Source: a virus (lineage: Duplodnaviria > Heunggongvirae > Uroviricota > Caudoviricetes). From it: DNA of 27,387 bases. The first letter of the stretch is position 1, and each line of letters begins with the position of its first letter. The stretch is taken from IMG/VR virus record IMGVR_UViG_3300014890_000018, positions 1 to 27,387 of that record; one strand, written 5' to 3'. The position numbers and the translations under genes were made by a program. This document shows positions 3,079 through 26,255 of this stretch, piece by piece. Under the pieces are notes generated by a model. That model was not told the DNA's origin. It saw only the letters and a list, made by a program, of their open reading frames with translations, and did not search any database.

Positions 3079-3193
3079 AAAAACCACCGTTTAATGTGCA
3101 TGAAGAACCACCTTAGTATGGGGTTCACCATGCATATTAAACCATATATGAATAGTTATTACCTCTACATCAATTAAATCACTATCATATAAA

Positions 3194-5779
3194 TTACATC
3201 TGGTTATTAATTTTCATTTCAATATTTTTAATGCGCTCAACCAATCCTCGCATAATGAAACGATCAAGTTCTTGATCTCGGAATTGCCACAAATCTCCTG
3301 CTTTCTTAACTAATTTTTTTTCACCAGTACTCACAGGAATAATGAATTTTTCACCATTTTGATCCGTAATTAACTCATCTTTAATGACATCTTCATATAC
3401 ATCATCCCATTTGTCATACCCTATAAATCCATAATCTCGCCAGTCCAGGCCCTCATCCTCTAAAACAGCAATAACTGCCTGAACAGTGGTGCCAGAGTGC
3501 AACCTTTTAGAATCATCATCAATCCATGTCCAGAAACCTAGCAGATCAGCCACTTTAATTGCTGCATTAATTTCAGATTTGGTGAATCCGCGAATCGGGT
3601 CTTTAAGACGCCCATCTGAACTTGACTGGGTTCCTCCGGCAAAATAACCAATGTTATATCGTAGTGATGCGCTACCTATATTTGAAGTGGCATCAGTTCC
3701 AGGAGTTATTCCTCCTGACGTTGCTATTTGCATTGCTGGAGTAGATCCAGACCCACCATGTCTGAACTGTAATTGACCTACACTGTTGTATTGTGTTCTC
3801 ATGAACCAAGATGTAGCATTGCCATTACTGAGCAGGCCAAGAATAGCATCAGAACCAGATGGAGCCGATACAGTGTACATTCCTGTCTTAGTGAGTGACG
3901 TCATGGTTTCTCCATCCTTGCTGACCAATAGTCTGTCGGAGCTTGCATCCATCATCACTTTCCATCCTGTAGACCCATCAGCAGCATTCTTCGTAAACTG
4001 AATTGATGCGTCACCAATATTCCCATCAGAGCCAAGAATTGCAACGGTATAACCGCCTGCTGGGTCTTTACCCACAACTCCAAATCTACCGTTTAGCGGA
4101 TCGCCTGAAACTATTATTTTTACAGGAATCACTCCGGCAAAATTGTCATTAAATATCTGAGAAATATAATTCATGCGCATGCCATAAAAACTAACGCCTC
4201 TCTTTACATTCTCAGAACCAATAAAAGTCGGAATATCTGAATTTGTAATACCATAAGGTGATTGCTCTACCACACCACCATAAAACTGGATGTTGGATGC
4301 GTGATCAAATTCTAATGCATGATTAGCTCTGGTTCTAAACTCACAGCCATAAAAGTAATGCCCATTTATTTCAGCGGATGTCGCATTAACATCACCATCT
4401 ATATAAAGGCATCGCCATGTGTTTGCGCTAGAGTAATAAGAAACAAGCTCTTCATGAGACATTGATGCACGACTGTGGTGATCAAGGGTATAAATACCAC
4501 ATTTATCTACTCTAGTTCCGCTGAGACCATAACTTGCAGGCCCAGTGTTTGAACCAAGAATTGCTAAACCGACTCGCCCCATAGTTGACCCACCAGTAAT
4601 GGTATTGTAATCAGGGTCATCGTTTCCTTGCTTTGACTGAATTATTGTACCTGCTTTTGAAAAGTATCCGAATACACAAACATCCTCCTGAAGATTTCTT
4701 GCAGAGTCATCGTAATAAACCCCACACTCATAATCTGCACGTTGGTCTTCATCAGGTTTTGTGTGATTACCGATGGAATCATAACAAATCATGTCTTGAA
4801 CCACGGCAATGCCTTTAAGGACAGATCCACTTGAACCATATTCTGGAGAAAGAACTCTCACGCAATATCGAACACTTGCGAAATGATCGTCTCTGTTATC
4901 TGTAGTAGCTATCTTTGTTCCTGCTCCAGAAAATATAAACGTAGCACCAGGCATATTTTCTTTTCTACCTTCAGCAAGAAAGAATTTGTCATCATCAGTA
5001 CCAAATCCAAGAACAGGAGAACCATTACCAATGAATCGAAAATCACCAGGTATTTCTATACCATCAGAGAATCGATAAACCCCATCAGGAACAAAAAAAG
5101 TTTTCTTTCCAGATGCAAGCAAAGCCTGCCACTGCGTTAAGTTGTCCGTTTTATAGTCACCTTTTAATCCAAAATCGGTTATGCTGACTGTATCTCGCAT
5201 CTTATCCTGGAACGTTCGATATATCGCACCAGAACCATACTGAATAAACCAACCAAAACCACCAACAACTCCGGCGATTGCAGCATCAACATAATTACGC
5301 ATTGAGCGATTATTTACAGCATCCTGCTCAAGTGATGGATCTGCAAGGTTAGAAATTCTGTTTTGCTTTGCATCGTAATATTTTGCAAGCAAAGATGGTT
5401 TCATCAATGCACGTCTGAACCACCCAAAACATTGCTGGATCAGCATCGTCAGGTAGTCAAAAGCATCTTCATGCACTTCGGGGAAAAATTTTCCCTGATT
5501 GCGAAGGTCTGTCTCCTGCACTACATCAAGCACACGATCTATCGTAATTCGCCATCCAGCAGCAAGCGGCGACGGAAGAACAACAGAACCGCCACTATAA
5601 GTGCCCGCCCCAGTTACCGTATAACCGGTATCCAGAACCAATTCTGTTACGTTCCCGTTCAGGTCAGACACCTGAACAACCAGGTCGGATTTTTTGAAAA
5701 TACGGAAGGTATACGGAAATGATGTCGTAGCGCCGTTACCGGTGTATTCGTTGTGGTCAACTTCGGTTGAGACCGTCAT
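3194..5779 (-). CDS. Tailspike / tail fibre: conserved N-terminal anchor, low-GC central domain (probable glycan depolymerase), C-terminal intramolecular chaperone (peptidase S74-like)
   Basis: 861 aa. N-terminus (MTVSTEVDHNEYTGNGATTSFPYTF...) matches the conserved N-terminal domain of podovirus tail fibres/spikes. C-terminal ~135 aa follow a SSDGRLKD motif, the S-D-x-R-x-K autocleavage signature of S74 chaperone domains. RBS GGAG 7 nt upstream. Strong AT-shift over roughly 3.2-5.5 kb versus the 5' end. Confidence 0.85.
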   Translation of the reverse strand: MTVSTEVDHNEYTGNGATTSFPYTFRIFKKSDLVVQVSDLNGNVTELVLDTGYTVTGAGTYSGGSVVLPSPLAAGWRITIDRVLDVVQETDLRNQGKFFPEVHEDAFDYLTMLIQQCFGWFRRALMKPSLLAKYYDAKQNRISNLADPSLEQDAVNNRSMRNYVDAAIAGVVGGFGWFIQYGSGAIYRTFQDKMRDTVSITDFGLKGDYKTDNLTQWQALLASGKKTFFVPDGVYRFSDGIEIPGDFRFIGNGSPVLGFGTDDDKFFLAEGRKENMPGATFIFSGAGTKIATTDNRDDHFASVRYCVRVLSPEYGSSGSVLKGIAVVQDMICYDSIGNHTKPDEDQRADYECGVYYDDSARNLQEDVCVFGYFSKAGTIIQSKQGNDDPDYNTITGGSTMGRVGLAILGSNTGPASYGLSGTRVDKCGIYTLDHHSRASMSHEELVSYYSSANTWRCLYIDGDVNATSAEINGHYFYGCEFRTRANHALEFDHASNIQFYGGVVEQSPYGITNSDIPTFIGSENVKRGVSFYGMRMNYISQIFNDNFAGVIPVKIIVSGDPLNGRFGVVGKDPAGGYTVAILGSDGNIGDASIQFTKNAADGSTGWKVMMDASSDRLLVSKDGETMTSLTKTGMYTVSAPSGSDAILGLLSNGNATSWFMRTQYNSVGQLQFRHGGSGSTPAMQIATSGGITPGTDATSNIGSASLRYNIGYFAGGTQSSSDGRLKDPIRGFTKSEINAAIKVADLLGFWTWIDDDSKRLHSGTTVQAVIAVLEDEGLDWRDYGFIGYDKWDDVYEDVIKDELITDQNGEKFIIPVSTGEKKLVKKAGDLWQFRDQELDRFIMRGLVERIKNIEMKINNQM

Positions 5780-5832: not shown

Positions 5833-5896
5833 ATTACCTGAAAAACCACATATGGATAGATAACCCATAAATACGAAAAGATATTACCTTTCAGGT
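5833..5896. promoter_or_regulatory. Divergent regulatory region A (between the tailspike and the SOS-regulated ORF) carrying the same two motifs as region B
   Basis: AACCACATATG at 5844-5854 and ATTACCTTTCAGGT at 5883-5896, same order and orientation as in region B (spacing 28 vs 40 bp). Confidence 0.5.
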
Positions 5897-5935
5897 GATT
5901 TGCAAAACGTGCTGGATAGCAAACAAATTATTTGA

Positions 5936-6255: not shown

Positions 6256-6267
6256 GTGACATGTCAC
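6256..6267. repeat. 12-bp perfect palindrome GTGACATGTCAC, copy 1 of 3
   Basis: Exact string; identical copies at 23979-23990 and 26244-26255; each sits beside an intrinsic-terminator hairpin at a junction between gene modules. Confidence 0.8.
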
Positions 6268-22922: not shown

Positions 22923-22998
22923 TTACCAATTTAACCACATATGATTTATTTATCGTAGATAGTTGACATTTAACGCACAAATTATTACCTTTCAGGTA
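22923..22998. promoter_or_regulatory. Divergent regulatory region B (between the portal unit and the tRNA cassette) carrying the shared motifs AACCACATATG and ATTACCTTTCAGGT
   Basis: AACCACATATG at 22934-22944; ATTACCTTTCAGGT at 22985-22998 containing the inverted repeat TACCT-TTC-AGGTA; TTGACA at 22964-22969 on the plus strand; minus strand reads TTGTGC-N17-TACGAT (promoter-like). Confidence 0.5.
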
Positions 22999-23049
22999 AG
23001 CAAAGAGTTCATTCCGGTTATTAACCTGACTGGCTTGTCGTTAAATTGA

Positions 23050-23321
23050 ACAGGTGGAGTGAGCTTTTATTTTGAGCAGTACGGCGTATGGCACATGCGA
23101 CGATAGCGGTCTGGATACGTTTAAGGGGCACCCTCCCTTGCTCGGGCAAACGAACCAGGTAGCCGGAATGTGCAAGTCGAGCGGTTTTATTCCGCGCACG
23201 GGGATTCACCATCCCGGCGATTCGGTGTGACGCCTCGGAAGAGACGAGGGTACAACGATGAGAGCATTTATGGAGCCGCGACAAAGTGTGGCGCCTTAAC
23301 AGGCTAAGTGCTCTCAGCGTT
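23050..23321 (+). ncRNA. Candidate structured non-coding RNA or long tRNA leader upstream of tRNA-Arg
   Basis: About 270 bp of GC-rich sequence with several local hairpins (gcgg-ttttatt-ccgc; cggg-N9-cccg; cctcg-gaagaga-cgagg) and no convincing ORF on either strand; sits between a promoter-like region and the tRNA. Confidence 0.3.
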
Positions 23322-23398
23322 GTGGCATTAGCTCAGCTGGACAGAGCAACCGCCTTCTAAGCGGTTGGTCGCAGGTTCGAATCCTGCATGCCACGCCA
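23322..23398 (+). tRNA. tRNA-Arg (anticodon UCU, reads AGA), phage-encoded
   Basis: 77-nt cloverleaf read by hand: acceptor GTGGCAT/ATGCCAC, D-stem GCTC/GAGC, anticodon stem ACCGC/GCGGT with loop CTTCTAA (anticodon TCT), T-stem GCAGG/CCTGC with loop TTCGAAT, discriminator G, encoded CCA. Resembles the enterobacterial argU tRNA but differs in the stems. Confidence 0.9.
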
Positions 23399-23441
23399 GA
23401 ATCACGCCTAAGGACCGTGATGCCAGAAGTTCCAGGGGCTT

Positions 23442-23483
23442 GGCGGTGATGGTTTCCCTTGAAGGACTATCACCGCCCTTTTT
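23442..23483 (+). terminator. Rho-independent terminator after the tRNA
   Basis: 9-bp stem ggcggtgat / atcaccgcc with an 18-nt loop, followed by cTTTTT. Confidence 0.5.
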
Positions 23484-23561
23484 ACAGCAGGACGCCATTG
23501 CGATGACTTCATGCTGTAAACCAGTACAGCCACGGAAGGCATAACTCATTGCTTCCAGTTC

Positions 23562-23584
23562 GCCCGGTTCGCCGGGCATTTTTT
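23562..23584 (+). terminator. Strong rho-independent terminator (UUCG tetraloop) immediately upstream of the 125-aa ORF
   Basis: Stem gcccgg / ccgggc, loop ttcg, then aTTTTTT; only 12 nt before the ATG at 23597. Confidence 0.65.
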
Positions 23585-23596
23585 AAAGGTGAGATT

Positions 23597-23974
23597 ATGA
23601 ACGACCAGCAAATCGAAAAAGAAATCGTTGAGAAAGGCAAAACGGCACCGCGAATCACCCCGCAGCACATCGAAGACGTGATTATTAGTGAGCACTATTT
23701 CACGGCTGCAGAAGGGGTTCATGGCGCTAATGAGCTTTTAAAACCGCATGAAAGCCCAATTGACTATTACCAGGAAGCGCACCCTGCTGAGTCACTTCTG
23801 ACCTTCTGCGTTCTGGTGCTGCGCAACGGATTTACTGTAACCGGAGAAAGCGCCTGTGCAAGCCCGGAAAACTTTGATGCAGAAATTGGTCGGAAGATTG
23901 CCCGGCAGAATGCTGTAAACAAAATCTGGATGCTTGAAGGTTACTTGCTGAAGCAGAAGTTAAGCGAGCAATAA
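23597..23974 (+). CDS. Hypothetical protein (125 aa) in the tRNA cassette, function unknown
   Basis: ATG at 23597 with RBS AAAGGTGAG 4-12 nt upstream (the track ORF starts earlier at 23549); plus strand, antisense to the structural operon; followed by palindrome and terminator. Confidence 0.6.
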   Translation: MNDQQIEKEIVEKGKTAPRITPQHIEDVIISEHYFTAAEGVHGANELLKPHESPIDYYQEAHPAESLLTFCVLVLRNGFTVTGESACASPENFDAEIGRKIARQNAVNKIWMLEGYLLKQKLSEQ

Positions 23975-23978
23975 CACC

Positions 23979-23990
23979 GTGACATGTCAC
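23979..23990. repeat. 12-bp perfect palindrome GTGACATGTCAC, copy 2 of 3
   Basis: Exact string 5 nt after the stop of the 125-aa ORF and 4 nt before a terminator hairpin; between the convergent 125-aa ORF and TerL. Confidence 0.8.
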
Positions 23991-23994
23991 AAAC

Positions 23995-24021
23995 AGCCAG
24001 CCTATGAGCTGGCTTTGTTTT
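23995..24021 (+). terminator. Rho-independent terminator ending the plus-strand tRNA/ORF cassette
   Basis: Stem agccagc / gctggct with loop ctatga, followed by ttgtttt. Confidence 0.55.
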
Positions 24022-24064: not shown

Positions 24065-25540
24065 TTAAGCATAAGGGTCATAATCCGTTATGGCCCTTCC
24101 CTGCTGGCTTTGCTGTCCTGGTATATTTATGCGTTTCGAGACCGGGAAAGCAAACGTCAGCAGTAGCGCATCGCCTTTACCCGGAGAACGCCCAAGCCGC
24201 TCCTTGATATCTTCCTTCGGTTCGATAACGACTTTACCGTCCACTCGAACTTTGTACTCTGCCGCCGACAGGTCGTCTGCAGTTTCCTGGTCATCCAGCA
24301 TGCCGCCGAGCCTCAGCCATGTCTTGCATGAGTTGAACATCTCCCCACGCTTGTTAAGCATCTGCGGGTCAGTGGACGCACCGCCGAACGGAACAAGTTG
24401 CCATGTACGTCCCCAGCCATCACCGATTGACTTCAAACCGGTTCCGTAACCGAAGTCGATGAACACTGCGTCAGCCTGGTACTGGTCTTCAAAGTCAGCG
24501 ATACGCTTCGCCATAATCAGATCGTCAGTGGTCTTGTTGCCAGTCCATAGCACCTTACTGTGCAGCCCCTGCCGCAGGTATATCACAGCGTCATCAACGC
24601 CGGAGTATGCCGGGTCAACGCCGATTATCACCGGAGCATGTGCAACCTGCGCAGCGGTTACCACCCGTTTCATTGCCTCGTCAGTAAGGCCGGTAGGGAT
24701 AAACTGTAATTCAGATGCATCAGGGAATATGCCGCGCACACGGATTTTAACGAAGTCGCTGTCTTCCCCGTAGTCATCAACCCATTTCTGCAACTGCTGT
24801 TTGTTAGTGCCTTCCACCGTCCGGCTGTCAATCTGCGCAGTTTTCCAGCGGTGTTTATATTTGCGGAAACATTCGCGGAAACGCCCGGTGTTACGTGTAG
24901 GGTTTCCGAACGCCACCCAGATAATCTCAGTGTCTTCGTCCGTAAGCGCACCCTCAGCAACTTCCCACACCAGATCCGCAATGTTCGACGCTTCATCGAA
25001 TACCACGATGATGCGTTTGCGCTCGTTGTGTAGTCCGGCGAATGCCTCAGTGTTGTGCTCAGACCAGGGTATTGCGTCAGCTCGCCACCGCTTGTCGTGC
25101 CCAGGGTCATTGCTGTACATCGCGGTAGCGGTACAGGTAAACCAGTCTTTCGTGATAGCAAGGTTCGACCACTTGATAATTTCCGGCCAGGTCTTCGTTC
25201 GTAGCTGGTTGTCGGTGTTGGCGGTCACCACGACCTTACAATCCTCGCAAGTGGACATGCCCCAGTTGATCAGCATTGAGATGAATGCGGATTTACCAAT
25301 ACCGTGACCAGAAGCACGTGCCAGCATAAGCGGCTGATATCGCGTCTCTGGATTCTGCAGGTGATCACGTATCTCTCGGAACGCATCGGCCTGCCACTGA
25401 CGTGGACCGGTGGCATGTGCCAGTTCAGTACCCTCTTCCCCCCACGGGAACGCATAGAGGGCATAGCCAAGCGGATCGTGAGTGAACCCTGCAATATCCT
25501 CGATTAACTGCTCTTCAGGAGATAACGCTGTATCTGTCAC
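24065..25540 (-). CDS. Terminase large subunit (491 aa)
   Basis: Walker A-type motif ARASGHGIGKSAF near the N-terminus, acidic nuclease-type C-terminal half, ATGA-type overlap with the TerS stop. Confidence 0.9.
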   Translation of the reverse strand: MTDTALSPEEQLIEDIAGFTHDPLGYALYAFPWGEEGTELAHATGPRQWQADAFREIRDHLQNPETRYQPLMLARASGHGIGKSAFISMLINWGMSTCEDCKVVVTANTDNQLRTKTWPEIIKWSNLAITKDWFTCTATAMYSNDPGHDKRWRADAIPWSEHNTEAFAGLHNERKRIIVVFDEASNIADLVWEVAEGALTDEDTEIIWVAFGNPTRNTGRFRECFRKYKHRWKTAQIDSRTVEGTNKQQLQKWVDDYGEDSDFVKIRVRGIFPDASELQFIPTGLTDEAMKRVVTAAQVAHAPVIIGVDPAYSGVDDAVIYLRQGLHSKVLWTGNKTTDDLIMAKRIADFEDQYQADAVFIDFGYGTGLKSIGDGWGRTWQLVPFGGASTDPQMLNKRGEMFNSCKTWLRLGGMLDDQETADDLSAAEYKVRVDGKVVIEPKEDIKERLGRSPGKGDALLLTFAFPVSKRINIPGQQSQQGRAITDYDPYA

Positions 25541-26133
25541 TGATTGCCATCCTGACGTTCTTTCAGTCTCTTCCTGGCTGCCGCTATGCGATCAGCAATT
25601 GTCACATTCACATTAACATCCAGGCGTTCTTTGAATGCGTTGACGTCGACGTGCTTACCAATCAGTTCGAGGTTCTTCACCTTGTCAGGCCATTTAATTT
25701 TTTTGAGGATTGTCTCTATCGAATCCTCGTTCATGTTCATGATGGTCGATGACAGATCAAAGCCACTAAGCGTAGTGCGCCAGATTTTCGGCCACTCGCG
25801 GATTGGCTTAAGGCTCCCATCGTCGTTGAGGATGTCGATCACGTCCATCTGGTCGATCTCCACCAGGCGCATGAGAACGTAATCAGCACTGACGCGCATT
25901 CGTTTGTTGCGCTCCTCCATCAACTCGGCAATCCGTTTTTGAATGCGTTCATCGCGCATCATGACACTGGCTTTAACTGCCGCTGTATTTGGGGAGAATC
26001 CTGCGTTAATCGCTGCCTGAGTCTGGTTTTCAGGCGTTTTGATGTATGACTGGCAATAAGCCTCCTGCATTGCTGTTAGTGGCTTAAATTGCGTTGATTT
26101 GCGTTTATAGGTTTTAGGTTCAGCAGGCATCAT
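25537..26133 (-). CDS. Terminase small subunit (about 198 aa from ATG at 26133)
   Basis: N-terminal helix-turn-helix segment AMQEAYCQSYIKTPENQTQAAINAGFSPNTAAVKASVMM is typical of small-terminase DNA-binding domains; directly upstream of and overlapping TerL. The track start at 26211 is a TTG inside the upstream terminator/repeat region; ATG at 26133 (or 26130) preferred. Confidence 0.8.
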   Translation of the reverse strand: MMPAEPKTYKRKSTQFKPLTAMQEAYCQSYIKTPENQTQAAINAGFSPNTAAVKASVMMRDERIQKRIAELMEERNKRMRVSADYVLMRLVEIDQMDVIDILNDDGSLKPIREWPKIWRTTLSGFDLSSTIMNMNEDSIETILKKIKWPDKVKNLELIGKHVDVNAFKERLDVNVNVTIADRIAAARKRLKERQDGNQ

Positions 26134-26140
26134 AACCACC

Positions 26141-26169
26141 GTGGTAATAGTTACCGTTGTGGTAATAGT
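26141..26169. repeat. Two direct repeats of GTGGTAATAGT, 18 bp apart, just upstream of the TerS start
   Basis: Exact 11-mers at 26141-26151 and 26159-26169, between a minus-strand terminator and the TerS ATG. Confidence 0.7.
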
Positions 26170-26243: not shown

Positions 26244-26255
26244 GTGACATGTCAC
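26244..26255. repeat. 12-bp perfect palindrome GTGACATGTCAC, copy 3 of 3
   Basis: Exact string overlapping the stop codon of the 112-aa gene and about 40 bp from the terminator hairpin upstream of TerS. Confidence 0.8.

What the first reader, a model, noticed from the sequence alone, without database searches (positions are those of the whole stretch)
23442..23610. Two intrinsic terminators in tandem ending 12 nt before an RBS and ORF
The terminator at 23562-23584 (perfect GC stem, UUCG loop, T6) ends 12 nt before the ATG at 23597, leaving no room for a promoter. Expression of the 125-aa ORF therefore seems to need terminator read-through, which suggests conditional expression by antitermination or attenuation, or that the hairpin acts as a stabilising structure for a processed transcript.
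Basis: seen in the sequence. Interest (0 to 1): 0.45.

Follow-up and report, generated by a model that had tools for sequence, protein, structure and literature searches.

The report
Terminators before a phage sponge gene
The two hairpins are real, conserved transcription terminators that end a prophage tRNA/non-coding-RNA gene, and the promoterless gene right behind them is a swappable anti-immunity "sponge" gene that apparently gets transcribed only by polymerases that run through those terminators.

Summary
T1 is 23442-23477 plus T5. T2 is 23562-23577 (GC stem, UUCG loop) plus A-T6. The ATG follows 12 nt later and the ORF is 125 aa.

The window is an epsilon15/phiV10-like prophage. The finding lies in a plus-strand island between terL and the portal operon. 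T1 directly follows a tRNA-Arg(UCU) gene, which is embedded in a conserved structured RNA.

Both hairpins keep pairing through compensatory changes in 80 distinct relatives. T2 is present in every lineage; T1 is lineage-specific. Sequence identity between phages ends exactly at T2's T-run.

Behind a shared T2-Shine-Dalgarno platform sit at least nine unrelated genes. They include three families of immune-signal sponges: Acb4/PF13876 (this window), Tad2-like, and Acb2/Tad1-like. In a quarter of relatives the cargo brings its own operator-bearing promoter, inserted right after T2.

No promoter, competing fold or SD sequestration was found between the tRNA and the ATG. The only conserved promoter is TTGACA-17-TACCTT (22963-22991), overlapped by an operator-like palindrome.

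Best reading: the cargo is expressed by passive read-through from an early promoter that I infer to be repressor-controlled. Regulated antitermination is not supported but not excluded. There are no transcript data.

The parts
22963..22999 (+). Candidate island promoter: -35 TTGACA 22963-22968, 17-nt spacer, -10 TACCTT 22986-22991, overlapped by the palindrome TTACCTTTCAGGTAA at 22985-22999 (operator-like)
   Evidence: The architecture TTGACN-17(16)-TACC(T/C)T, with the -10 inside the palindrome, is present in 106 of 106 loci that carry the palindrome upstream of the RNA core. The palindrome occurs 5 times in the window (0.5 expected) and 14 times in phiV10 (0.7 expected), including two copies between the repressor and cro-like genes. 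It scores below the strict promoter-scan threshold. Its function is inferred.
23000..23321 (+). Conserved structured leader RNA. It has a 5' hairpin (about 23003-23070), a core at 23083-23268, and a variable insert closed by GAGAGCA 23260-23266 / UGCUCUC 23309-23315
   Evidence: It is 100% identical in four E. coli phages. The core is found in prophages of at least 10 enterobacterial genera. RNAalifold on 16 diverse copies gives 34 pairs, 7 with compensatory changes. No Rfam 15 family matches.
23322..23398 (+). tRNA-Arg, anticodon UCU
   Evidence: ARAGORN. Rfam tRNA 71.7 bits, E = 4.6e-14. Annotated as tRNA-Arg in related phage and E. coli records.
23401..23421 (+). Conserved trailer hairpin H0 (AUCACG / CGUGAU, 9-nt loop)
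   Evidence: Paired in 99.6% of cells in 80 sequences, with one compensatory G-C to A-U change. Also kept in distant genera.
23442..23483 (+). T1: intrinsic terminator, stem-loop 23442-23477 plus C-T5
   Evidence: -22.8 kcal/mol, z = -4.4. Compensatory A-U/G-C swap 42:36. Loop inverted with the stem kept in L066. Lineage-specific: absent in Kluyvera, Scandinavium and Pseudescherichia relatives.
23484..23561 (+). Conserved T1-T2 spacer. Its first part forms the inverted repeat UUUACAGCA 23481-23489 / UGCUGUAAA 23512-23520
   Evidence: Nearly invariant across E. coli, Salmonella and Klebsiella types, though the loci were selected on a 16-mer inside it. Hairpin predicted by RNAalifold with one covarying pair. 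No promoter-like site. The repeat is unique in the phage. Function unknown.
23562..23584 (+). T2: intrinsic terminator, GCCCGG-UUCG-CCGGGC plus A-U6
   Evidence: Paired in 99.4% of cells, with two pairs showing compensatory changes. Loop inverted with the stem kept in L048. Present in all 7 Uetakevirus-like genome loci from other genera. Unique in the phage, so not a dispersed repeat. It marks the exact point where identity between phages ends.
23585..23596 (+). Shared translation-initiation platform: AAAGGTGAGATT with the Shine-Dalgarno AGGTGA at 23587-23592
   Evidence: The same AAGGTGA follows T2 in 84 loci, in front of at least nine unrelated ORFs. The SD is predicted accessible.
23597..23974 (+). 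Cargo ORF, 125 aa: Acb4-family (PF13876, N4 gp49 / Sf6 gp66) candidate cyclic-nucleotide sponge
   Evidence: Pfam PF13876, E = 6.3e-36, 123 bits against a cut-off of 27. Matches SPO1 Acb4 chain 9e4w_A, E = 0.005, residues 68-110. PF13876 is the Acb4 family according to PMC11722364. RefSeq calls it 'Gp49 family protein'.
23979..24021 (+). Unit end: palindrome GTGACATGTCAC 23979-23990, then T3 hairpin 23995-24014 and UUGUUUU
   Evidence: -12.8 kcal/mol. Conservation between phages resumes here. The same palindrome-plus-terminator composite ends two other units in the window, at 6256 and 26244. phiV10 annotates the hairpin as a rho-independent terminator.

Best explanation
The finding is the 3' part of a plus-strand early transcription unit. 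The unit lies antisense between the terL and portal operons of an epsilon15/phiV10-like prophage.

The unit is: promoter TTGACA-17-TACCTT with an overlapping operator-like palindrome; a roughly 320-nt conserved structured leader; tRNA-Arg(UCU); hairpin H0; T1; a conserved spacer; T2; the Shine-Dalgarno; a swappable cargo gene (here an Acb4-family sponge); and a palindrome plus T3.

T2, together with the lineage-specific T1, is a genuine intrinsic terminator. Its primary job is to make the 3' end of the RNA products.

In this variant the cargo gene has a ribosome-binding site but no promoter. It is transcribed only by the fraction of polymerases from the upstream promoter that pass T1 and T2 by ordinary, incomplete termination. 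The terminators therefore act as fixed attenuators that set the cargo:RNA ratio. They are not a switch.

The conditional step is at the promoter, which is probably repressed in the lysogen and released on infection or induction. T3 stops what remains before it runs antisense into terL.

Shown: the anatomy, the conservation and covariation of the hairpins, the exact cassette boundary at T2's T-run, the absence of a recognisable promoter or competing fold, the conserved upstream promoter architecture, and the identity of the cargo families.

Inferred: that the promoter fires, that the palindrome binds the repressor, the extent of read-through, and the timing.
For: 1. Hairpins followed by U-runs that are conserved with compensatory changes. 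T2 is found in all lineages and genera examined.
2. Identity among four E. coli phages is 100% up to the T-run of T2, collapses immediately after it, and resumes at T3.
3. 84 loci have T2 + AAGGTGA + ATG in front of at least nine unrelated ORFs. So the SD belongs to the conserved scaffold and would be useless if T2 were absolute.
4. 28 loci carry cargo with its own sigma-70-like promoter (for example ATGACC-17-TATAAT) inserted right after the T-run. This shows what a promoter looks like here and that class A lacks one.
5. In L104 and L068 an extra SD-ORF-terminator cassette sits right after T1's U-run. Promoterless cassettes behind terminators are therefore the rule in this island.
6. No promoter-like site lies on the plus strand between 22000 and 24400. 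TTGACN-17-TACCTT is conserved in 106 of 106 loci. Covarying helices begin just downstream of it, which places the transcription start there.
7. There is no structure competing with T2, and the SD is accessible.
8. The phage's own logic is terminator, then a new operator-bearing candidate promoter. In phiV10 palindromes lie just downstream of four of the annotated terminators (at 33078, 35038, 32040 and 26781). This argues against a genome-wide antitermination cascade.
Against: - No transcript data exist for any member (literature searches found none). Read-through, promoter activity and timing are all unmeasured.
- The -10 hexamer TACCTT matches consensus at only 3 of 6 positions.
- Sponge proteins act stoichiometrically and would seem to need high expression. 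That sits uneasily with two terminators in front.
- T2 looks efficient: an all-GC stem, a UUCG loop and U6-7. Its T-run is kept at 7 in most promoterless loci.
- The long conserved RNA between promoter and terminators could be an antitermination element. I could not test this.
Confidence: 0.55

Rival explanations
1. Regulated or processive antitermination. Polymerases that start at the island promoter are made terminator-resistant, either by the conserved leader RNA acting in cis (as HK022 put does) or by a phage or host factor. T1 and T2 would then stop only other transcripts, and the cargo would be fully expressed in lytic growth.
For: A roughly 320-nt conserved, covarying RNA lies directly between promoter and terminators in every relative. 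Sponge genes plausibly need strong early expression. T2 is kept intact even where the cargo depends on passing it. UGCUCUUU, just 5' of the tRNA slot in many relatives, resembles the start of rrn boxA (the resemblance is recalled from my own knowledge).
Against: T3 must still terminate the same polymerases, otherwise they run antisense into terL and terS. A quarter of relatives give the cargo its own promoter right after T2, which would be unnecessary if upstream polymerases ignored T2. Elsewhere the phage appears to re-initiate after terminators rather than reading through. No boxB/nut-like hairpin was recognised and no Rfam antitermination family matches. The boxA-like string is the 3' strand of a conserved helix (GAGAGCA/UGCUCUC).
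Confidence: 0.15
2. An unrecognised promoter lies in the T1-T2 spacer, perhaps activator-dependent and using the 23481-23520 inverted repeat. T2 would then be a 5'-UTR element, either an attenuator or a 5' stem-loop protecting the mRNA from RNase E.
For: The first 40 nt of the spacer are more conserved than a passive spacer needs to be. They form a 9-bp inverted repeat with TTTACA on both strands. A hairpin close to the 5' end is a known mRNA stabiliser (own knowledge; ompA 5' UTR).
Against: The scan found no promoter-like site. The only -10-like hexamer near T2 (CATAAC, 23540-23545) is not conserved in the Salmonella or Klebsiella types. The repeat occurs nowhere else in the phage. Kluyvera, Scandinavium and Pseudescherichia relatives lack T1 and the repeat altogether, yet keep T2, and two of the three (L138, L139) also keep the SD + cargo arrangement; in L129 the cargo has its own promoter. 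The repeat therefore cannot be the general source of cargo transcription.
Confidence: 0.12
3. Processing model. Read-through transcripts are cut (RNase P or E at the tRNA, RNase E in the spacer), and the T2 hairpin ends up at or near the 5' end of the released cargo mRNA and stabilises it. This is an add-on to read-through rather than an alternative to it.
For: A tRNA or tRNA-like module is always present upstream and would recruit RNase P and 3' processing. T2 is kept at the same distance from the SD in all promoterless loci.
Against: No data exist. T2's U-run is conserved, which is needed for termination but not for a 5' cap-like hairpin. The loci with their own promoter keep T2 although their mRNAs start downstream of it.
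Confidence: 0.1
4. T2 is an effective full stop and the ORF is essentially silent cargo that merely sits in a recombination hot spot.
For: T2 has canonical terminator features. An empty-slot variant with an 8-codon ORF exists.
Against: The ORFs are intact in almost all of the 84 loci and belong to families with demonstrated anti-defence activity. The shared SD is conserved and accessible. The Acb4-like gene shows localised hypervariability, which is typical of a gene under selection.
Confidence: 0.05

Closest known systems
Stx phage 933W late region (pR' - tR' - tRNA genes ileZ/argN/argO - stxAB)
   Same: A temperate enterobacterial phage in which an accessory, host-directed gene lies downstream of phage tRNA genes (including tRNA-Arg) and of an intrinsic terminator. 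The gene is expressed mainly in lytic growth from an upstream phage promoter. This description is from my own knowledge.
   Different: In 933W the terminator is overcome by the Q antiterminator loaded at qut, and the unit is co-oriented with the late genes. Here no Q/qut-like element was found, the unit is antisense to the late genes, the cargo is a swappable cassette, and passive leak is the favoured mechanism.
Phage morons (lambda, HK97: promoter - gene - terminator cassettes between conserved genes)
   Same: An extra gene, variable between otherwise near-identical phages, sits between two conserved morphogenesis genes and ends with its own terminator.
   Different: The defining autonomous promoter is absent in the window's variant. 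It is present only in the 28 'class B' relatives. Here the expression platform (terminator + SD) belongs to the resident scaffold, not to the incoming gene.
Anti-defence gene clusters and hot spots (SPO1 host-takeover region with Tad2 and Acb4; T4 acb1/acb2; anti-CRISPR loci; P2/P4 hot spots)
   Same: A single genomic position holds alternative counter-defence genes. Acb4-, Tad2- and Acb2/Tad1-family sponges occupy the same slot in different relatives. Acb4 function is described in PMC11722364.
   Different: The slot lies in the middle of the packaging/head module of a temperate podovirus. It is transcribed antisense, is coupled to a tRNA/ncRNA gene, and sits behind that gene's terminator. My literature searches found no description of this locus.
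Tandem terminators of stable-RNA operons (rrnB T1-T2) and tRNA-mRNA co-transcription (thrU-tyrU-glyT-thrT-tufB)
   Same: Two intrinsic terminators in series follow a stable-RNA gene, and a protein gene shares a transcript with tRNA. This description is from my own knowledge.
   Different: In rrnB nothing is expressed beyond T2. In the tufB operon no terminator separates the tRNAs from tufB. Here a translated gene starts 12 nt after the second terminator.
Large phage-associated, tRNA-linked structured RNAs (GOLLD, ROOL)
   Same: A long, conserved, covarying non-coding RNA in prophages, physically linked to a tRNA, with variable inserts. The GOLLD/ROOL properties are from my own knowledge.
   Different: No match to either Rfam model, or to any other, even at E up to 5. 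The element is much smaller (about 0.4-0.6 kb with modules) and restricted so far to Enterobacteriaceae. The relation is by analogy only.

Membership tests
Intrinsic (Rho-independent) terminator | G+C-rich stem-loop immediately followed by a run of U | tested here: met
   T1: 14 pairs, then C-U5. T2: 6 G-C pairs, UUCG loop, then A-U6.
Intrinsic (Rho-independent) terminator | Structure rather than sequence is conserved (compensatory changes), and the U-run is conserved | tested here: met
   T2 99.4% paired with 2 covarying pairs; T1 has an A-U/G-C swap. Loop inversions keep the stems. T-run length is 5-10, mode 7.
Intrinsic (Rho-independent) terminator | Lies at the 3' end of a transcription unit, in the sense orientation | tested here: met
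   43 nt (T1) and 163 nt (T2) downstream of tRNA-Arg on the same strand. On the minus strand neither hairpin is followed by a U-run.
Intrinsic (Rho-independent) terminator | Measured RNA 3' ends or termination efficiency | not testable with these tools
   No Term-seq or in vitro data were found. A d'Aubenton-Carafa-type score failed calibration on known terminators and was discarded.
Attenuator / riboswitch-type conditional terminator | A mutually exclusive antiterminator fold overlapping the terminator's 5' arm | tested here: not met
   The RNAalifold consensus of 80 sequences shows T2 and T1 as isolated hairpins. The centroid fold of 23479-23600 likewise.
Attenuator / riboswitch-type conditional terminator | A leader peptide or ligand-binding aptamer directly upstream | tested here: not met
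   No Rfam cis-regulatory family matches at E up to 5. The only upstream in-frame start (TTG 23549) has no SD.
Processive antitermination (lambda N/nut, Q/qut, HK022 put) | A nut (boxA + boxB hairpin) or qut site, or put-type twin stem-loops, just downstream of the promoter | tested here: inconclusive
   No boxB-like hairpin was recognised by eye. A structured leader RNA exists but has no demonstrated relation to put. No put model is available in the tools.
Processive antitermination (lambda N/nut, Q/qut, HK022 put) | Downstream terminators of the same unit are all bypassed | not testable with these tools
   This needs transcript mapping. Indirect argument against: T3 closes the unit, and some relatives add a promoter after T2.
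Phage moron | Gene present in some and absent or replaced in other closely related phages, between conserved genes | tested here: met
   at least nine ORF families and an empty-slot variant between terL and the portal operon.
Phage moron | Own promoter upstream of the gene | tested here: not met
   In the window only 12 nt separate the T-run from the ATG, and no promoter-like site was found. Met only in the 28 class-B relatives.
Phage moron | Own terminator downstream | tested here: met
   T3 at 23995-24014 + UUGUUUU.
Acb4 family (Pfam PF13876, Phage_gp49_66) | Significant match to the family profile over its whole length | tested here: met
   E = 6.3e-36, 123.2 bits (cut-off 27), profile positions 1-82 of 82. 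SPO1 Acb4 chain 9e4w_A, E = 0.005. The family is defined as Acb4 in PMC11722364.
Acb4 family (Pfam PF13876, Phage_gp49_66) | Tetramer that sequesters cyclic oligonucleotides and rescues the phage from CBASS | not testable with these tools
   I made no structure prediction. Binding and phage-challenge assays are needed.
Repressor-controlled early promoter | Sigma-70 promoter whose -10/+1 region is overlapped by the operator that also lies between the repressor and cro genes | tested here: inconclusive
   The sequence architecture is conserved in 106 of 106 loci. The same palindrome occurs at phiV10 32727 and 32775, between gp40 and gp41. Binding and promoter activity were not tested.

The most novel reading that the evidence does not exclude
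The terminators are the end of a previously undescribed family of modular phage RNAs. The RNA has a roughly 190-nt conserved, covarying core, a variable insert, and a swappable module closed by an acceptor-like stem. That module is a true tRNA-Arg(UCU) here. In relatives it is an 86-203-nt tRNA-like RNA, one of which contains a look-alike of 16S rRNA positions 237-283. The RNA is hard-wired to a slot for immune-signal sponge genes.

On this reading the whole unit is a combined RNA-plus-protein counter-defence island switched on from one promoter that I infer to be repressor-controlled. The RNA modules would act as replacements or decoys for host RNAs attacked by defence nucleases, or as processing or antitermination signals for the cargo. 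The promoterless genes in the slot with no known family would be candidate new anti-defence proteins.
Probability: 0.25. Interest if true: 0.8.

Novelty: new variant of a known kind. Interest (0 to 1): 0.5.

Why it matters
The finding turns an odd-looking terminator-RBS junction into a testable expression platform. A conserved terminator plus Shine-Dalgarno sits behind a phage RNA gene, and at least nine different genes have been slotted behind it, including three known families of immune-signal sponges (Acb4, Tad2, Acb2/Tad1).

If read-through is how they are made, terminator leakiness sets the dose of counter-defence proteins. The roughly six gene families in the same slot that match no family of known function become strong candidates for new anti-defence functions.

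Some part of the island region matches DNA in about 15% of complete E. coli genomes (795 of 5426; 155 of them cover at least 80% of the 771-base query). It occurs in many enterobacterial genera, so experiments are easy to set up with phiV10, SPN1S or natural lysogens.

The upstream conserved RNA with exchangeable tRNA-like modules is not in Rfam. It deserves study in its own right.

Tried and rejected
1. Promoter between the tRNA and the ATG. The sigma-70 scan found nothing. My inspection for extended -10, sigma-54 (GG-N10-GC) and TTTACA/TTGCGA-based candidates found none with a usable -10, and none conserved across the three sequence types.
2. An alternative promoter TTGAAC-16-TATTTT (23047-23074) for the RNA. 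Rejected because a covarying 5' hairpin starts upstream of it and the segment is absent in the Salmonella type.
3. Attenuation by a competing fold or leader peptide. Not found.
4. An anti-SD pairing seen in one MFE fold (23541-23550 with 23588-23598). Rejected because the SD is more open in native sequences than with shuffled upstream sequence, across 63 junctions.
5. The spacer inverted repeat as a recurring regulator site. It is unique in the phage. My first pattern used the wrong spacing.
6. T1 or T2 as dispersed REP-like repeats. Each is a single copy.
7. A terminator-strength score of the d'Aubenton-Carafa type. It gave nonsense for rrnB T1, so I did not use it.
8. Weaker T2 in promoterless loci. 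There is only a small shift in T-run length, not corrected for phylogeny, so it is weak evidence.
9. The minus-strand ORF 23328-23579 (PhiV10p04 in phiV10). It overlaps the tRNA and both terminators and is not annotated in other records, so I regard it as spurious.
10. Rfam identity for the leader and modules. None reached threshold. The only hints were a 16S fragment look-alike and a sub-threshold Methylophilales-1 match, and I found no paper on the latter.
11. PADLOC on the unknown cargo families. Only non-specific coiled-coil hits.
12. Literature on transcription of epsilon15/phiV10-like phages or on this locus. Nothing found.
Full report
OBSERVATION

- T1 is a 36-nt stem-loop at 23442-23477 (14 pairs counting G-U, 8-nt loop), followed by C and five T (23479-23483).
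- T2 is GCCCGG-TTCG-CCGGGC at 23562-23577, followed by A and six T (23579-23584).
- AGGTGA lies at 23587-23592. The ATG is at 23597, 12 nt after the last T.
- The ORF runs to 23974 and encodes 125 aa.

Folded alone, T1 has -22.8 kcal/mol (z = -4.4 against dinucleotide shuffles) and T2 has -12.7 kcal/mol (z = -2.6).

The simple terminator pattern is not enriched in this part of the window: 9 sites against 7.3 +/- 2.8 expected. The case for reality therefore rests on comparison with relatives, described below.

The window is a prophage of the epsilon15/phiV10 group (genus Uetakevirus).
- The large minus-strand ORFs are the small terminase subunit (PF03592), the large terminase and the portal (PF12236).
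- The 1.6 kb around the finding is 96-97% identical to phiV10 and to O157 typing phages 9 and 10.
- Part of the region is found in 795 of 5426 complete E. coli genomes. RefSeq annotates it 'Gp49 family protein | tRNA-Arg | terminase'.

The finding lies in a plus-strand island inserted antisense between terL (24065-25540, minus) and the small ORF + portal operon (22894 downwards, minus).

A tRNA-Arg gene with anticodon UCU lies 43 nt upstream of T1, at 23322-23398 (ARAGORN; Rfam tRNA 71.7 bits). T1 and T2 are therefore the terminators of an RNA gene. A third terminator, T3 (23995-24014 + TTGTTTT), closes the ORF.

The ORF matches Pfam PF13876 (N4 gp49 / Sf6 gp66) with E = 6e-36. It also matches the solved SPO1 Acb4 chain 9e4w. 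PF13876 has been defined as the Acb4 family of anti-CBASS cyclic-nucleotide sponges, with 1,331 members (PMC11722364).

COMPARATIVE ANATOMY

Alignment with phiV10, typing phage 9 and TL-2011b shows 100% identity from the portal side up to the T-run of T2. Identity collapses at the very next base; TL-2011b has an unrelated ORF there. Identity returns at T3. Salmonella SPN9TCW and a Klebsiella phage have the same layout with other ORFs.

I scanned IMG/VR for a 16-mer of the T1-T2 spacer. This returned 120 stretches, of which about 117 are true homologues. After T2 they fall into two classes.

Class A (84 loci, including the window). The T-run is followed directly by AAGGTGA and an ATG. Behind this shared platform are at least nine unrelated ORF families:
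- PF13876 (Acb4-like);
- PF11195 (Tad2-like, in three sizes);
- PF24729 (Acb2/Tad1 hairpin domain);
- several PHROG families of unknown function;
- one 'empty' variant with an 8-codon ORF.

Class B (28 loci). The T-run is followed by a good sigma-70-type promoter (for example ATGACC-17-TATAAT or GTGACT-17-TAAGAT) and then a larger gene.

In L104 and L068 a further SD-ORF-terminator cassette sits immediately after T1's U-run. Promoterless cassettes placed directly behind a terminator are thus a recurrent design of this island, not an accident of one genome.

ARE THE HAIRPINS TERMINATORS?

In 80 distinct sequences (alignment A2):
- T2 is paired in 99.4% of cells. Two of its six pairs change on both sides (G-C to A-U and G-C to C-G, 12 sequences each).
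- T1 keeps its upper eight pairs with an A-U/G-C swap (42:36).
- The overall covariation score is 0.144 against 0.086 in shuffles (0 of 500 reach it), and all slid controls are lower.
- Two natural loop inversions (T2 in L048, T1 in L066) preserve the stems.

The T-run after T2 is 5-10 long, with a mode of 7. On the minus strand neither hairpin is followed by a U-run, so both are unidirectional. Neither is a dispersed repeat.

I scanned one genome per species for the conserved upstream RNA core. It was found in prophages of Kosakonia, Phytobacter, Kluyvera, Klebsiella, Citrobacter, Ca. Erwinia dacicola, Pseudocitrobacter, Enterobacter, Scandinavium and Pseudescherichia. All seven loci with the Uetakevirus-type layout have T2 followed by the cargo slot. 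Three of them (Kluyvera, Scandinavium, Pseudescherichia) lack T1 and the first half of the spacer. T2 is therefore the terminator shared by all these lineages, and T1 is present only in some of them.

WHERE DOES TRANSCRIPTION COME FROM?

No promoter-like site is reported on the plus strand between 22000 and 24400. I found no conserved -10 in the spacer by eye.

Upstream of the RNA there is TTGACA (22963-22968), a 17-nt spacer, and TACCTT (22986-22991). The -10 hexamer is embedded in the palindrome TTACCTTTCAGGTAA (22985-22999). This exact architecture, TTGACN-17(16)-TACCTT inside TTACC-N5-GGTAA, is present in 106 of 106 loci that have the palindrome. Helices that covary begin a few bases downstream of it. 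This places the start of the RNA there.

The palindrome is strongly over-represented: 5 copies in the window against 0.5 expected, and 14 in phiV10 against 0.7 expected. In phiV10:
- two copies lie between the repressor gene (gp40) and the cro-like gene (gp41);
- others lie just downstream of four annotated terminators (at 33078, 35038, 32040 and 26781) and upstream of terS;
- the class-B cargo promoters contain it too.

I infer that it is the repressor operator. I also infer that this phage is organised as a series of terminator-bounded units that each re-initiate from an operator-controlled promoter. On that inference the island is silent in the lysogen and early in lytic growth. Binding and promoter activity are not shown.

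MECHANISM

The most economical explanation is as follows. The island promoter drives the leader RNA and the tRNA. T1 and T2 form the 3' ends of these RNAs. The polymerases that escape them transcribe the cargo gene, which is translated from the scaffold's own accessible SD. T3 then ends the unit before terL is transcribed antisense.

Arguments for passive leak rather than a switch:
- There is no fold competing with T2.
- There is no leader peptide.
- There is no SD sequestration: P(unpaired) is 0.45 in native sequence against 0.33 with shuffled upstream sequence, in 63 junctions.
- T3 must still work on the same polymerases.
- Some relatives add a promoter after T2.
- The phage re-initiates after terminators elsewhere.

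Arguments that leave room for antitermination:
- A conserved structured RNA lies just after the promoter.
- Sponge proteins are likely to be needed in quantity.
- T2 looks efficient and is conserved even where the cargo depends on passing it.

No transcriptome, Term-seq or promoter study of this phage group was found. The extent of read-through is therefore unknown.

COMPARISON WITH WHAT IS KNOWN

- It works like the tRNA-stx region of Stx phage 933W, where an accessory gene lies behind phage tRNAs and a terminator and is expressed in lytic growth. It lacks a recognisable Q/qut system.
- It resembles a moron but fails the defining 'own promoter' feature in this variant.
- It is an anti-defence hot spot comparable to those known in other phages. 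It differs in sitting in the packaging/head module of a temperate podovirus, in being antisense, and in lying behind an RNA gene's terminator.
- Tandem terminators after stable-RNA genes are classical (rrnB T1-T2), but nothing is translated 12 nt beyond them there.

I therefore class the finding as a new variant of known kinds. It is not a new principle.

SIDE FINDING

The roughly 320 nt between promoter and tRNA are a conserved structured RNA. On 16 diverse copies the consensus fold has 34 pairs, 7 of them compensatory. It has no Rfam family.

After the core comes a variable insert closed by GAGAGCA/UGCUCUC. After that comes a module slot closed by an acceptor-like stem (GUUGUGG.../...CCACAAC). 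The window has a true tRNA-Arg in this slot. About 36 viral loci and most other genera have 86-203-nt tRNA-like modules that ARAGORN does not call. Some have a canonical T-arm and CCA. One contains a look-alike of 16S rRNA positions 237-283 (Rfam E = 2e-5).

This RNA, physically coupled to the sponge slot, is the most novel thing in the neighbourhood. It is the basis of the 'novel case'.

VERDICT

The feature is real and conserved, moderately interesting in itself, and more interesting for the island it belongs to.

Noticed in passing
window 23000-23321 (+), core 23083-23268: A conserved structured RNA with no Rfam family lies between the island promoter and the tRNA. Its core is found in prophages of at least 10 enterobacterial genera. 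The consensus fold of 16 copies has 34 pairs, 7 with compensatory changes.
   Followed up: partly
window 23316-23400; loci L020, L021, L053, L057, L076, L077, L100 and others: The tRNA position is itself a variable slot closed by an acceptor-like stem (GUUGUGG/CCACAAC). It holds tRNA-Arg(UCU) here and 86-203-nt tRNA-like modules elsewhere. Some modules have a canonical T-arm + CCA. One has a 16S rRNA 237-283 look-alike (E = 2e-5). One has a sub-threshold full-length match to Methylophilales-1 RNA.
   Followed up: partly
window 22985-22999, 26133-26147, 26151-26165, 5884-5898; phiV10 (L126), 14 sites: The palindrome TTACC-N5-GGTAA is 10- to 20-fold over-represented. It sits at the starts of transcription units, including between the repressor and cro-like genes of phiV10. 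It is probably the repressor operator controlling many promoters directly.
   Followed up: partly
window 23979-23990, 6256-6267, 26244-26255: The exact 12-bp palindrome GTGACATGTCAC lies just 5' (in the direction of transcription) of a terminator hairpin at three unit ends. It is retained behind 79 of 84 promoterless cargo genes and absent behind most class-B cargo. Function unknown.
   Followed up: partly
window 22933-22943, 5844-5854, 3140-3150 (and phiV10 20920, 24736, 33132): A second recurrent motif, AACCA(C/T)AT(A/G)TGG(TT), lies 8-50 nt downstream of several operator palindromes in the late-gene direction. It may be part of the late or rightward promoters.
   Followed up: no
window 3194-5779 (-): The 861-aa ORF uses AGA for 14 of its 40 arginines. 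The other nine large ORFs tallied use 0-4 each. The phage tRNA-Arg(UCU) may mainly serve this gene. My reading of the ORF as tailspike-like was not tested.
   Followed up: partly
window 23597-23974; loci: The Acb4-like proteins share a nearly invariant C-terminal 60 residues and N-terminal 25 residues. Residues about 25-65 are hypervariable in sequence and length between otherwise near-identical phages. This suggests diversifying selection or segment swapping.
   Followed up: no
window 23452-23466 and 23120-23140; loci L039, L056, L122: The loop of T1 and the variable hairpin of the leader share a UUCCCUUG motif. Three relatives have deletions that recombined between these two copies, removing the tRNA.
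   Followed up: no
window 23328-23579 (-): The 83-aa minus-strand ORF annotated as PhiV10p04 in phiV10 and as F365_gp24 in TL-2011b overlaps the tRNA gene and both terminators. It is very likely a mis-annotation.
   Followed up: yes
locus L058 3929-4154: A group II intron (domains 1-4, 186 bits) is present in one related viral contig, outside the island.
   Followed up: no
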